Source: a virus (lineage: Duplodnaviria > Heunggongvirae > Uroviricota > Caudoviricetes). From it: a DNA stretch of 4,385 nt. The DNA is taken from the IMG/VR virus record IMGVR_UViG_2671180268_000009. One strand, given 5' to 3'. This document shows positions 1 through 4,385 of the stretch, one piece after another. Under the pieces are notes generated by a model. That model was given only the letters and a program-made list of their open reading frames with translations, was not told the DNA's origin and ran no database searches. The position numbers and the translations under genes are program-made. The stretch's first letter is position 1; each line of letters begins with the position of its first letter.

Positions 1-79
1 GCTTTGAACTCTTTAGAGTAACGTTGGGTTTTTCTGCTCATTATTAGCTCCTTCTGATGCCATTCTATTTCAGGAAGGA

Positions 80-782
80 GTGTCCGTTAAACTCAGGCTA
101 CCTCAGGTTATTCGCTTCTGGGCATGGGCGGATCAACAAATGATAGACGGTAATGCAGATTGTAACGCTCGCGGCGTTACAAAAAGTGCAATAGATCGCA
201 TCACTTTTATGTCTGGTTTTGCTGATGCGTTAATTCAGGTTGGATGGCTGGTCGAAAATGACGGAGGGCTTTCTCTACCTAACTTTGAACGTCATAACGG
301 AAAAAGCTCTAAAAAAAACGGGCGGTTACAAACGAGCGAGTAACAAAAATACGCGAACTGAAACGAAAAGGTAACGCTGCCAGCGTTACACAAACGGATC
401 AAAAAGCGTTACCAGAGGAAGAGGAAGAGGAAGATCTAAATACTGATCTCCCCCTCGCCAAAAACGAGCGTCTAAAAAATTCGAGCCGGAGGCTATTGAG
501 CTGCCCGATTGGTTGCCGGAAACACTCTGGCATGAGTGGGTCCGGTTCAGACAGGCATTGCGAAAACCGATTCGAACGGAGCAGGGCGCTAACGGGGCGA
601 TACGGGAACTGGAAAAATTCCGTCAGCAGGGTTTTACACCTGAGCAGGTGATTCGACACAGCATCGCCAATGAATACCAGGGCCTGTTCGCGCCGAAAGG
701 TGTTCGGCCTGAGACGTTGCTCCGACAGGTTAACACCGTCTCGTTGCCGGACAGTGCGATCCCGCCAGGCTTCAGGGGGTAA
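80..782 (+). pseudogene. Phage replication-initiation/primosomal protein with DnaT-like C-terminal domain (YdaU-like); frame broken by two apparent -1 frameshifts
   Basis: Three consecutive open segments in different frames: frame 2 from GTG 80 to TAA 341-343; frame 1 open 313-648, reading through a (GAGGAA)x3 acidic stretch; frame 0 open from 447 to TAA 780-782. The frame-0 segment ends ...NTVSLPDSAIPPGFRG, which closely matches the C-terminus of E. coli DnaT as I recall it (...NTVSEPDSQIPPGFRG), and ELPDWLPETLWHEW resembles the DnaT PDWQPD region. The frame switches fall at an A8 run (311-318) and an A6 run (474-479). Adding one A to each run gives one continuous ORF of about 235 aa. GGAAGGAG at 72-79 abuts GTG 80 with no spacer, so the true start is uncertain (in-frame ATG at 140 is an alternative). 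Stops occur in all three frames within 1-50, so the gene does not extend upstream of the window. Confidence 0.6.
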
Positions 783-1219: not shown

Positions 1220-1320
1220 NNNNNNNNNNNNNNNNNNNNNNNNNNNNNNNNNNNNNNNNNNNNNNNNNNNNNNNNNNNNNNNNNNNNNNNNNNNNNNNNN
1301 NNNNNNNNNNNNNNNNNNNN
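1220..1320. other. Assembly gap (101 N)
   Basis: Uninterrupted run of n at 1220-1320. It removes the 3' part of the DnaC-like gene, and the true length is unknown. Confidence 0.98.
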
Positions 1321-2320: not shown

Positions 2321-3007
2321 ATGACCCCAATAAACATATTTATGACAGTTGCTGATTTCAAACGGCCCAAATTGGAGCTCCCAAACGGGGCAAACAAACT
2401 ACTACTGCACTCTTGCTGTGCTCCATGTTCCGGTGAGGTGATGGAGGCGCTTCAGGCCTCGGGAATCGACTACACCATCTTTTTCTACAACCCGAACATT
2501 CATCCTCAGAAAGAGTATTTAATTCGTAAGGATGAGAATATTCGCTTTGCTGAACAACACGGCGTGCCGTTTATTGATGCTGATTACGACACAGACAACT
2601 GGTTTGAACGAGCCAAAGGAATGGAATGGGAGCCCGAACGAGGGATCCGTTGCACCATGTGTTTTGACATGCGTTTTGAGCGGACAGCGCTGTACGCCGC
2701 TGAAAATGGTTTCAGTGTGATCAGCAGTTCACTGGGCATTTCACGCTGGAAAAATATGCAGCAGGTTAACGACTGTGGGCGGCGAGCCGTCGCGCATTAT
2801 CCGGGCATGGTGTACTGGGATTATAACTGGCGCAAGCAGGGCGGCTCGTCCCGTATGATTGAAATCAGCAAGCGCGAAAAATTCTATCAGCAGGAATATT
2901 GTGGCTGTGTGTATTCTCTGCGCGATACCAATCTACACCGCAAATCTCAGGGACGCCCTCTTATCAAAATTGGTCAACTCCACTACGGTAAAGAAGAGAA
3001 GGAGTGA
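2321..3007 (+). CDS. queH: QueH-like epoxyqueuosine reductase (DUF208 family) carried as prophage cargo
   Basis: 228-codon ORF ending at TGA 3005-3007. The N-terminal motif [15 protein letters not shown] matches the conserved LLLHxCCAPCS signature I recall for DUF208/QueH, with further Cys pairs (RCTMCFD, YCGCVYS) consistent with an Fe-S/metal enzyme. Start is ambiguous between ATG 2321 and ATG 2342. Confidence 0.65.
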
Positions 3008-3028
3008 TTTTATGGGGCACCTTTCTGA

Positions 3029-3058
3029 TTGATTTCATATTGGCGAGGTAAGTAGAAT
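3029..3058 (+). promoter_or_regulatory. Candidate sigma70-type promoter directed into the masked region
   Basis: TTGATT (3029-3034), 18-bp spacer, TAGAAT (3053-3058). Pattern match only. Confidence 0.25.
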
Positions 3059-3076
3059 GACTGCGGGTGCTTGAGG

Positions 3077-3113
3077 CTATCTGCTTCAGGCATGAACACC
3101 AAAAGGCAGATAG
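3077..3113. repeat. 8-bp perfect inverted repeat (CTATCTGC ... GCAGATAG) with 21-nt loop
   Basis: 3077-3084 CTATCTGC and 3106-3113 GCAGATAG are exact reverse complements. It lies just downstream of the candidate promoter and could be an operator or an RNA stem-loop. Confidence 0.4.
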
Positions 3114-3156
3114 AGAAAAGCCCCAGTTAACATTACGCGTCCGGCAAGACGCTTAA

Positions 3157-3449
3157 NNNNNNNNNNNNNNNNNNNNNNNNNNNNNNNNNNNNNNNNNNNN
3201 NNNNNNNNNNNNNNNNNNNNNNNNNNNNNNNNNNNNNNNNNNNNNNNNNNNNNNNNNNNNNNNNNNNNNNNNNNNNNNNNNNNNNNNNNNNNNNNNNNNN
3301 NNNNNNNNNNNNNNNNNNNNNNNNNNNNNNNNNNNNNNNNNNNNNNNNNNNNNNNNNNNNNNNNNNNNNNNNNNNNNNNNNNNNNNNNNNNNNNNNNNNN
3401 NNNNNNNNNNNNNNNNNNNNNNNNNNNNNNNNNNNNNNNNNNNNNNNNN
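3157..3449. other. Masked/unknown sequence (293 N)
   Basis: Uninterrupted n run at 3157-3449. The non-round length suggests a sized gap or masked segment; its content cannot be read. Confidence 0.98.
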
Positions 3450-3472
3450 CATCCTCAACGCACCCGCACTTA

Positions 3473-3516
3473 ACCCGCCCATCGCTGTGATCTCTCAGCG
3501 TTTCGGCGGGTTTTTT
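3473..3516 (+). terminator. Rho-independent terminator for a rightward transcript leaving the masked region
   Basis: ACCCGCC (3473-3479) pairs with GGCGGGT (3505-3511), with inner pairing CGCTG (3483-3487) / CAGCG (3496-3500), followed by TTTTTT at 3511-3516 and more T-rich sequence to 3527. Confidence 0.55.
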
Positions 3517-3645
3517 GTTGTTTATTTCCGGTGAATTTGATTCGCGCACCTTCGCAGATAGAATCGACTCACTTAAGTAGCGCGCAGGGAGAAGAGGGAT
3601 GGACCCCGAACAGGGGAGAGCTATTTATCTGGAAGGATTCTGAAG

Positions 3646-3933
3646 ATGAAAATCGAAGAATTGCGTGAAATTTTTAGTGAAAATGGCCTCTATGCTGTGC
3701 GCGTTGAGAATGGAGCGATTGTCAGCCATTGCCGCATTAGATGTTTGCAATCTCAACAAAGGAAGAGCGGTGCTGTGTTATTTTATTTTTGTAATGGACT
3801 TCTGACGGACGGTTTTATTTTGCGTGAGGACGAATTTGTCACATCATTACGGGTTTTGAAAGAGATTGGTTTTAAGGCTGGTTTTCTGCTTTTGCTGAAG
3901 AATAAACTCATCTACAATCTTGAGCAGGATTGA
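3646..3933 (+). CDS. Hypothetical protein, AT-rich orphan ORF (possible moron)
   Basis: ATG 3646 is preceded by GGAAGGA at 3631-3637 with an 8-nt spacer; 95 codons to TGA 3931-3933. It is visibly more A/T-rich than its neighbours (runs such as ttttatttttgtaatgg, ggttttattttg). I recognise no family. A promoter-like TTGATT (3537-3542) / TAGAAT (3558-3563) lies upstream, but its 15-bp spacer is short. Confidence 0.5.
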   Translation: MKIEELREIFSENGLYAVRVENGAIVSHCRIRCLQSQQRKSGAVLFYFCNGLLTDGFILREDEFVTSLRVLKEIGFKAGFLLLLKNKLIYNLEQD

Positions 3934-3971: not shown

Positions 3972-4325
3972 ATGGCACATATACAACTGGTCAAACAAAC
4001 CTCTTCCGGATTACTTCTCCCGGCGACGCCGGAGAGTTGCGATTTTCTGCATCAAATCAAAATAGGTGAGTGGATACACGCAGACTTTAAGCGTGTGTGT
4101 AACTACGCATTCCACAAGCGTTTTTTCAAACTCCTGCAACTGGGTTTCGATTACTGGACTCCGGTCGGTGGGGCGATCACGCCTCGCGAACGAAAACTGG
4201 TGTCCGGTTTCGTTGATTACCTGTGTGAATCAGTAGGCCGGGAACATACGCCAGCTCTGAGCGAAGCCGCAGAGCAATTGAGGTGTACTGGCAATAGCGG
4301 ACACTACCATTTGTTCTTTTTTTAA
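3972..4325 (+). CDS. Conserved lambdoid-phage nin-region protein (DUF1367-like, tentative)
   Basis: ATG 3972 has GGAG at 3961-3964 with a 7-nt spacer; the ORF runs to TAA 4323-4325. The translation MAHIQLVKQTSSGLLLPATPESCDFLHQIKIGEWIHADFKRVCNYAFHKRFFKLLQLGFDYWTPVGG resembles a phage family I recall from the region between replication genes and Q. The ORF ends inside a T7 run (4317-4323) with odd terminal residues (HYHLFFF), so the 3' end may be unreliable. Confidence 0.55.
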   Translation: MAHIQLVKQTSSGLLLPATPESCDFLHQIKIGEWIHADFKRVCNYAFHKRFFKLLQLGFDYWTPVGGAITPRERKLVSGFVDYLCESVGREHTPALSEAAEQLRCTGNSGHYHLFFF

Positions 4326-4385
4326 GCAGCCATCTGATGATATTTTTCCCTGAAGGCTGCCGGGGAGATATTCCCCAGACGAGAG

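What the first reader, a model, noticed from the sequence alone, without database searches (positions are those of the whole stretch)
3008..3530. Cryptic locus hidden by 293 N, bracketed by a promoter-like element, an inverted repeat and a strong terminator
A TTGATT-N18-TAGAAT element and an 8-bp perfect inverted repeat lie on the left of the N-run, and a textbook intrinsic terminator lies on the right. This implies a discrete rightward transcription unit of about 450 nt or more whose content cannot be seen. In addition, a minus-strand reading frame terminates at 3133-3135 (last codons ...LSVLPDA) and extends into the gap, so an oppositely oriented gene is also possible. If the window holds an undescribed element (small RNA, toxin or defence gene), this is the most likely place.
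Basis: partly seen in the sequence, partly recalled or inferred. Interest (0 to 1): 0.6.

Follow-up and report, generated by a model that had tools for sequence, protein, structure and literature searches.

The report
Prophage hok/sok toxin-antitoxin behind N-gap

Summary
The described features are all present. [quoted passage not shown] Both flanks are 100% identical to E. coli FDAARGOS_943/944. They are also near-identical to E. coli ECMA0423 and S. flexneri SFBU1023. In all of these, 287 nt fill the gap and encode mok, hok and the Sok promoter. The Hok is 51 aa, hits Pfam HOK_GEF at 4e-23, and is 50/51 identical to the experimentally tested HokW of phage 933W/Sp5.

In the window itself:
- TTGATT-N18-TAGAAT (3029-3058) sits 6 nt upstream of the conserved hok mRNA 5' end (G3065).
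- The 8-bp inverted repeat is the conserved 5' hairpin of that mRNA (Rfam RF01794, 53.9 bits, E 2e-10, on the visible third alone).
- 3453-3465 is the 3' fold-back element that pairs with the 5' end.
- 3472-3516 is the terminator.
- The 3' part of antisense Sok (about 3116-3156) is visible on the minus strand.

The minus-strand "ORF" is an artefact of N being read as X; the filled sequence has four stops. Low interest.

The parts
3029..3058 (+). hok promoter (-35 TTGATT, 18-nt spacer, -10 TAGAAT)
   Evidence: Found by the consensus scan. The -10 ends 6 nt before G3065, which is position 1 of the Rfam hok-leader model. The -10 and its spacing to +1 are conserved in all 7 subfamily homologues aligned (TAGAAT, with TAAAAT or TACAAT in two); the -35 region is not conserved. 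Promoter activity is inferred, not shown.
3065..3516 (+). Full-length hok mRNA (about 452 nt in window coordinates, 446 nt in gap-free relatives); the middle is hidden by N
   Evidence: The 5' end is set by the Rfam RF01794 match and the 3' end by the terminator. The whole transcript from L001 folds at -191.5 kcal/mol, z = -8.4.
3065..3076 (+). 5' element GGGUGCUUGAGG (the 'tac' position of R1 hok mRNA), which pairs with the 3' fbi element
   Evidence: In the minimum-free-energy fold of every complete homologue, nt 1-12 pair with CCUCAACGCACCC near the 3' end. R1-type hok shows the same architecture with different sequences, GGCGCUU / AAGCGCC.
3077..3113 (+).
   Evidence: It aligns with the paired positions of Rfam RF01794.
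3116..3186 (-). Sok antisense RNA, about 71 nt. The 3' tail and the 3' half of the terminator hairpin (3116-3156) are visible. The 5' part and its start are projected into the N-run from L001.
   Evidence: Position mapped from the annotated sokW of 933W (L002 871-941 minus strand) through alignment A1. The predicted RNA folds into a long terminator hairpin with a U tail, z = -4.9, as annotated SokW does. Coordinates beyond 3156 are nominal.
3157..3449 (.). N-run (293 N). Relatives have 287 nt here, holding the Sok start and promoter, the mok start, the whole hok CDS and an internal GC-rich hairpin. Nominal positions counted from the left edge using L001: Sok -10 at 3193-3198, Sok -35 at 3216-3221, mok ATG at 3178, hok ATG at 3235, shared stop at 3388-3390.
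   Evidence: Both flanks are 100% identical to L001 up to the edges of the gap. The 287-nt fill differs by one SNP among L001, L005 and L006. Pfam HOK_GEF gives 4e-23, and Rfam sok gives 117 bits.
3453..3465 (+). fbi (fold-back inhibition) element CCUCAACGCACCC, complementary to the mRNA 5' end with a one-nucleotide bulge at C3459
   Evidence: pairing partners 383-395 of the L001 transcript correspond to window 3453-3465.
3472..3516 (+). Intrinsic terminator of hok mRNA: 8-bp stem AACCCGCC / GGCGGGTT, a 25-nt loop containing a small sub-hairpin, then T6
   Evidence: z = -4.7. Other homologues have a compact CCCGC-TTCG-GCGGG-T6 terminator at the same place.

Best explanation
The region is a hok/mok/sok type I toxin-antitoxin module carried by a defective lambdoid prophage, between queH and a rem-like gene. 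Its central part is replaced by an assembly gap or mask.

Shown here by sequence and structure:
- A constitutive-type promoter (3029-3058) starts the hok mRNA at about G3065.
- The mRNA ends at the terminator (3472-3516).
- Its first 12 nt can pair with the fbi element at 3453-3465.
- On the minus strand, a roughly 71-nt Sok RNA runs from a TTGCCT-17-TAACCT promoter (inside the gap) across the mok Shine-Dalgarno sequence and start codon. It ends at about 3116 with a long hairpin and a U tail.

Inferred from the R1 hok/sok and Sp5 hokW/sokW literature:
- The 5'-3' pairing keeps the full-length mRNA closed, so that it is neither translated nor bound by Sok.
- Slow 3' trimming opens the mRNA.
- While the short-lived Sok is made, it pairs with the mok translation-initiation region, blocks mok and the coupled hok translation, and the duplex is cut by RNase III.
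- When Sok synthesis stops (loss of the element, or prophage induction or transcription shut-off), the stable mRNA is translated. The 51-aa Hok peptide then inserts into the inner membrane and collapses it.
- In a prophage the likely pay-offs are retention of the element and/or earlier lysis and better phage release, as reported for HokW.
For: - Both flanks of the gap are 100% identical to E. coli FDAARGOS_943/944 and near-identical (at least 99.6%) to E. coli ECMA0423 and S. flexneri SFBU1023. In all of these the gap is 287 nt, with one SNP among them.
- That fill encodes a 51-aa Hok (Pfam HOK_GEF, 81 bits, 4e-23) and an in-frame 70-aa mok ORF, arranged as in the annotated mokW/hokW of 933W.
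- The Hok is 50/51 identical to HokW, 46/51 to K-12 HokD and 23/51 to R1 Hok.
- Rfam RF01794 (sok/hok leader) scores 117 bits in the relatives. It scores 53.9 bits, E 2.2e-10, on the visible window part 3065-3124 alone.
- 5'-3' pairing appears in the minimum-free-energy fold of every homologue with an intact 3' end, 8 of 8, and, with different sequences, in R1-type hok.
- The Sok promoter, start and hairpin coincide with the annotated sokW.
- hokW/sokW has been shown experimentally to be a type I TA system whose Sok disappears on prophage induction, and which roughly doubles phage release (PMC8621323).
Against: - The core of the module (hok, mok, Sok promoter) cannot be seen in the window itself. 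It is inferred from relatives.
- The N-run is 6 nt longer than the relatives' fill, and N-run lengths here are demonstrably unreliable (101 N stands for 314 nt). The real content of this particular genome is therefore unverified.
- No expression or toxicity data exist for this allele.
- The host prophage is degraded (IS600 ends at both ends of the window), so the module could be a relic.
Confidence: 0.93

Rival explanations
1. The module is present but is an inactive relic in this genome. The hidden part would carry a disrupting mutation or insertion, like several chromosomal hok loci of E. coli K-12 that are inactivated (my recollection of Pedersen and Gerdes 1999; not checked here).
For: - The prophage fragment is bracketed by IS600 ends and its outer genes are truncated.
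- The N-run length differs from the relatives' fill by 6 nt.
- In K-12 Qin, the homologous hokD has lost the whole leader, mok and Sok: homology starts only at the hok Shine-Dalgarno sequence.
Against: - Every visible regulatory element (promoter, 5' hairpin, Sok terminator half, fbi, terminator) is intact and identical to relatives in which the hok ORF is intact.
- N-run lengths are unreliable anyway.
Confidence: 0.1
2. In this genome the gap hides something other than the hok core, such as an inserted mobile element or different cargo that a short-read assembler could not cross.
For: - The genome is IS-rich (IS600 at both window ends).
- The assembler or mask left N here.
- The other N-run greatly under-represents the true length (101 against 314 nt).
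Against: - A simpler cause of the gap is that the module is a repeat: 4713 of 5426 E. coli genomes carry it, with a median of 2 and up to 9 places per genome.
- All four genomes sharing the flanks have the same 287-nt fill.
- The 293-N estimate is close to 287.
Confidence: 0.04
3. A minus-strand protein-coding gene ends at 3133-3135 and extends into the gap.
For: An open frame appears in the window when N is translated as X.
Against: - In the filled sequence the frame has four stop codons between 3135 and the right flank.
- No minus-strand ORF of 20 aa or more ends there.
- The plus strand is occupied by conserved hok/mok.
Confidence: 0.01

Closest known systems
hokW/mokW/sokW of Stx2 phage 933W / Sakai prophage Sp5 (AF125520; Takada et al. 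2021, PMC8621323)
   Same: - Lambdoid-prophage location.
- Hok 50/51 aa identical.
- mok in frame with hok and sharing its stop codon.
- The same Sok position and hairpin.
- About 91% DNA identity over the promoter-proximal region, leader and coding region, L001 3743-4170.
- The same leader structure by Rfam.
   Different: - Different neighbours: here queH upstream and rem-like downstream, whereas in 933W the module lies near the right end of the genome next to L0136-L0139.
- The -35 region of the hok promoter differs.
- The terminator here carries a 25-nt loop insert.
- One residue differs at the C-terminus (R50 here, E50 in HokW).
hokD (relF) of the E. coli K-12 Qin cryptic prophage, next to rem
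   Same: - Hok 46/51 aa identical.
- The same downstream neighbour (rem).
- 82% DNA identity from the hok Shine-Dalgarno sequence through rem.
- NCBI's PGAP annotation names the gap-filling gene hokD.
   Different: - K-12 hokD has no leader, no mok and no Sok. Homology begins at L001 3922, just upstream of the hok ATG, and the gene follows relBE.
- The window lineage keeps the complete autonomous module.
hok/sok (parB) of plasmid R1, the type system
   Same: - The same set of parts in the same order: promoter, 5' element pairing with a 3' fbi element, leader hairpins, and a mok start overlapped by antisense Sok.
- The Sok -10 and -35 hexamers are embedded in the conserved TAGCCTCTTAC / CAAGGAGAAG blocks.
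- A Hok peptide with the conserved LTRK-LCE-R-G-EVA-F-YES motif.
   Different: - Only 23/51 aa identity.
- No nucleotide BLAST match.
- In R1, mok is in a different frame from hok (read from the R1-type sequence). Here it is in frame, so Mok would be an N-terminally extended Hok.
- The Sok hairpin here is longer by a 16-nt insertion relative to the Rfam consensus.
- Prophage rather than plasmid.

Membership tests
hok/sok (Hok/Gef) type I toxin-antitoxin | Hok-family toxin ORF of about 50 aa (Pfam PF01848 HOK_GEF) | tested here: met
   Met on the gap-filling sequence of relatives with 100% identical flanks: 51 aa, 81.1 bits against a cut-off of 22, E 4.3e-23. It cannot be seen in the window itself, where the sequence is N.
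hok/sok (Hok/Gef) type I toxin-antitoxin | Overlapping upstream mok reading frame through which hok translation is coupled | tested here: met
   A 70-codon ORF at L001 3879-4091 starts 57 nt upstream of hok and shares its stop codon. Annotated mokW/hokW of 933W have the same layout. Translational coupling itself is not testable here.
hok/sok (Hok/Gef) type I toxin-antitoxin | Structured hok mRNA leader (Rfam RF01794 'sok') | tested here: met
   Relatives score 117 bits against a gathering score of 59. The visible part of the window, 3065-3124, matches model positions 1-58 at 53.9 bits, E 2.2e-10. That is below the gathering score only because two thirds of the model lies in the N-run.
hok/sok (Hok/Gef) type I toxin-antitoxin | Cis-encoded antisense Sok RNA with its own promoter, complementary to the mok translation-initiation region, ending in a terminator hairpin | tested here: met
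   - Minus-strand promoter TTGCCT-17-TAACCT, with the start at L001 3887, which coincides with the 5' end of annotated sokW.
- The RNA covers the mok ATG (3879-3881) and its GAGG.
- It folds into a long hairpin with a U tail, z = -4.9.
- The 3' 41 nt are visible at window 3116-3156.
- Expression was not tested.
hok/sok (Hok/Gef) type I toxin-antitoxin | Long-range pairing of the mRNA 5' end with a 3' fbi element that locks the full-length mRNA | tested here: met
   Both partners are visible in the window: 3065-3076 GGGTGCTTGAGG and 3453-3465 CCTCAACGCACCC, giving 12 pairs and one bulge. They are paired in the minimum-free-energy fold of every homologue with an intact 3' end, 8 of 8. R1-type hok does the same with different sequences.
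hok/sok (Hok/Gef) type I toxin-antitoxin | Hok kills or arrests cells when expressed, and Sok neutralises it | not testable with these tools
   Shown experimentally for HokW/SokW, which is 50/51 aa identical (PMC8621323; identity). Not shown for this allele.

The most novel reading that the evidence does not exclude
The actual gap content of this genome, or this lineage's unusual terminator, marks a functional variant of the prophage hok/sok module. The terminator has a 25-nt structured insert in its loop, shared at 95% identity or more by only about 6 of the complete E. coli records. Such a variant might have altered 3' processing or activation kinetics of hok mRNA, or a 2-codon longer Hok/Mok if the 293-N length is real.
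Probability: 0.05. Interest if true: 0.2.

Novelty: already known. Interest (0 to 1): 0.08.

Why it matters
It matters little beyond annotation. The "cryptic locus" is a standard prophage-borne hok/sok addiction and lysis-timing module that occurs in most E. coli genomes, often in several copies. Two practical lessons follow. Repeated prophage modules such as hok/sok are places where draft assemblies break or are masked. And the visible flanks alone (promoter, 5' hairpin, fbi, terminator) are enough to recognise the module. For this strain the finding adds one more putative type I toxin to the inventory of a degraded, IS600-bracketed lambdoid prophage.

Tried and rejected
- tRNA genes in the gap. 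My first guess was the ileZ-argN-argO-type tRNA cluster of lambdoid phages, which would fit about 290 nt. ARAGORN finds nothing in the window, and in the relatives the tRNA cluster lies about 2.2 kb further downstream. Rejected.
- A minus-strand protein gene. Rejected: four stops in the filled frame.
- Finding the source contig itself. An exact-pattern scan of genome contigs returned five loci, none of which contains the N-runs, so the source genome was not identified. The close relatives are E. coli and S. flexneri.
- Testing whether the N-run lengths are faithful. The first N-run (101 N) corresponds to 314 nt in every close relative, so a length-preserving mask is unlikely. The 6-nt difference at the second gap cannot be interpreted.
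- Covariation statistics for the 5'-3' pairing. Within this subfamily both partners are invariant, so nothing could be counted. Only the comparison with R1-type hok shows different sequences keeping the pairing.
- The consensus terminator scan misses the terminator because of its 25-nt loop. Folding and the inverted-repeat search confirm it.

Full report
**Observation**

The window is 4385 nt and has two N-runs, 1220-1320 (101 N) and 3157-3449 (293 N).
- TTGATT-N18-TAGAAT lies at 3029-3058.
- A perfect 8-bp inverted repeat, CTATCTGC / GCAGATAG, lies at 3077-3084 / 3106-3113, inside a longer imperfect pair.
- A stem, AACCCGCC / GGCGGGTT, lies at 3472-3479 / 3505-3512 and is followed by T6.
- A minus-strand frame is open through the Ns and ends at 3133-3135.

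By consensus alone the promoter-like site is no more than chance (4 sites found, 3.9 expected). The simple terminator scan missed the terminator because its loop is 25 nt.

**What surrounds it**

The window is a piece of a lambdoid prophage. In order it holds an O-like gene, a DnaC-like ydaV (interrupted by the first N-run), a DUF977 gene, a small ORF, queH (Pfam QueH, 1.9e-65), the gap, a rem-like 95-aa ORF, and a truncated DUF1367 gene. Both ends of the window (1-109 and 4278-4385) are IS600 termini.

**Filling the gap**

Megablast of 2800-3900 against complete E. coli genomes found two records, FDAARGOS_943 and FDAARGOS_944, that match both flanks at 100%. A pattern scan of species-representative genomes added E. 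coli ECMA0423 and S. flexneri SFBU1023. In all of these, 287 nt lie between the flanks, with one SNP among them.

The first N-run stands for 314 nt in the same relatives. N-run lengths here are therefore estimates, not true lengths, and the difference between 293 and 287 carries no weight.

The fill is annotated hokD, "type I toxin-antitoxin system toxin". It contains:
- a 51-aa ORF (Pfam HOK_GEF, 4.3e-23);
- a 70-codon mok frame that starts 57 nt upstream, in frame with hok, exactly as in the annotated mokW/hokW of phage 933W.

The Hok is 50/51 identical to HokW, 46/51 to K-12 HokD and 23/51 to R1 Hok.

**What the visible flanks are**

Rfam RF01794 (the hok leader / sok family) matches the relatives at 117 bits. 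In the window itself, 3065-3124 matches model positions 1-58 at 53.9 bits, E 2.2e-10.

- **Promoter.** In all 7 subfamily homologues the -10 hexamer (TAGAAT, with TAAAAT or TACAAT in two) and this spacing are conserved, while the -35 region varies.
- **Inverted repeat.** The 8-bp repeat is the stem of the conserved first leader hairpin.
- **Right flank.** 3453-3465 (CCTCAACGCACCC) is complementary to the first 12 nt (GGGTGCTTGAGG) with one bulge. This 5'-3' pairing appears in the minimum-free-energy fold of the whole transcript (-191.5 kcal/mol, z = -8.4) and of every homologue with an intact 3' end, 8 of 8. The R1-type hok mRNA, whose sequence I recalled and then confirmed at 100% identity in many plasmids, shows the same architecture with different sequences, GGCGCUU / AAGCGCC. 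This corresponds to the fold-back-inhibition (fbi) arrangement of the R1 system.
- **Terminator.** It follows at 3472-3516.

**Sok**

On the minus strand of the fill, TTGCCT-17-TAACCT precedes a start at L001 3887. That start coincides with the 5' end of the annotated sokW when mapped through the alignment. The RNA runs across the mok GAGG and ATG and ends near L001 3817, which is window 3116. It ends with a long hairpin and a U tail (z = -4.9, the same fold as SokW). The last 41 nt of Sok (3116-3156) are thus visible in the window, and its promoter and 5' end are hidden.

**The minus-strand ORF**

Translating the filled sequence in that frame gives four stop codons, and no minus-strand ORF of 20 aa or more ends at that position. 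It is an artefact of N being read as X.

**Mechanism**

The parts listed above are shown here by sequence and structure. The dynamics are inferred from the R1 and Sp5 literature, as follows.
1. The 5'-3' pairing keeps the stable full-length mRNA inert, and 3' trimming activates it.
2. Short-lived Sok pairs with the mok initiation region, blocks the coupled mok/hok translation and triggers RNase III cleavage.
3. When Sok synthesis stops, Hok is made and damages the inner membrane.

For HokW/SokW these points were tested (PMC8621323). HokW is toxic. SokW from its own promoter neutralises it, partly dependent on RNase III and Hfq. SokW disappears after mitomycin C induction. Deleting the locus delays growth arrest and halves phage release.

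A survey reports that hok genes are about four-fold enriched in prophages (bioRxiv 10.1101/2025.08.07.668861).

**Comparison and novelty**

The closest known system is hokW/mokW/sokW, with about 91% DNA identity over the promoter-proximal region, leader and coding region. K-12 Qin hokD is the same gene next to the same neighbour (rem) but has lost the leader, mok and Sok. The window lineage keeps the whole autonomous module.

The module, or close relatives of it, occurs in 4713 of 5426 complete E. coli genomes, with a median of two and up to nine places per genome. It also occurs on many plasmids. That repetitiveness is a sufficient reason for an assembly gap here.

The only lineage-specific detail is a 25-nt structured insert in the terminator loop. 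Other homologues have CCCGC-TTCG-GCGGG, and most E. coli matches stop just before the insert.

**Verdict**

It is wrong about novelty and about a minus-strand ORF. The element is already known and of low interest. The remaining uncertainty is only whether this particular genome carries the same 287-nt core as its relatives, which PCR across the gap would settle.

Noticed in passing
window 1220-1320: The first N-run (101 N) interrupts the DnaC-like ydaV gene. In all close relatives 314 nt lie between the same flanks, so N-run lengths in this window are not true lengths. This fits scaffold gaps at repeated prophage genes; this segment matches up to 7 places per E. coli genome.
   Followed up: yes
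window 1-109 and 4278-4385: Both ends of the window are termini of IS600, an IS3-family element (100% identity to annotated IS600 copies). IS600 copies therefore bracket the prophage fragment, truncating the O-like gene on the left and the DUF1367 gene on the right. In S. flexneri SFBU1023 the two segments are the two ends of a single roughly 1.27-kb element, which begins 61 nt beyond the point where homology to the window's right-hand prophage sequence ends. This suggests an IS-rich, Shigella-like or enteroinvasive-type source genome.
   Followed up: partly
window 3537-3564: A second promoter-like site with the same hexamers (TTGATT-16-TAGAAT) lies directly after the hok terminator, about 80 nt upstream of the rem-like ORF (3646-3933). 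It may be that gene's promoter. No test beyond the consensus scan.
   Followed up: no
window 3480-3504 (loop of the hok terminator): This lineage has a 25-nt insert (CATCGCTGTGATCTCTCAGCGTTTC, with its own CGCUG/CAGCG sub-hairpin) where other hok homologues have a TTCG tetraloop. Only about six of the complete E. coli records (genomes FDAARGOS_943/944 among them) match the whole module at 95% identity or more. Any effect on termination or 3' processing is unknown.
   Followed up: partly
L001 4074-4077 (hidden part; nominal window about 3373-3376): Hok codon 47 is TAC (Tyr) followed by G, within CUACGAA. This is the TACG context in which TadA A-to-I editing recodes Tyr to Cys in K-12 hok mRNAs, according to the bioRxiv Hok survey. 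This prophage hok may be subject to the same editing.
   Followed up: no
window 2321-3007: A complete epoxyqueuosine reductase gene (queH; Pfam QueH, 1.9e-65) is carried by the prophage immediately upstream of hok/sok. It is a phage-borne tRNA-modification (queuosine) gene.
   Followed up: no
L004 (Xanthomonas pisi 431-nt contig), L007 (Candidatus Scatousia MAG, 2995-nt contig), L008 (soil 'Proteobacteria' MAG scaffold): E. coli-type hok/sok leaders (Rfam sok, 102-114 bits) sit on short contigs assigned to unrelated organisms. L008 also carries a DicF RNA. These are probably enterobacterial prophage contamination or mis-binning in those assemblies.
   Followed up: no
L001 3879-4091 and L002 933-1145: In this prophage subfamily mok is in frame with hok and shares its stop codon, so Mok would be an N-terminally extended Hok of 70 aa. 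In R1, mok and hok are in different frames.
   Followed up: partly
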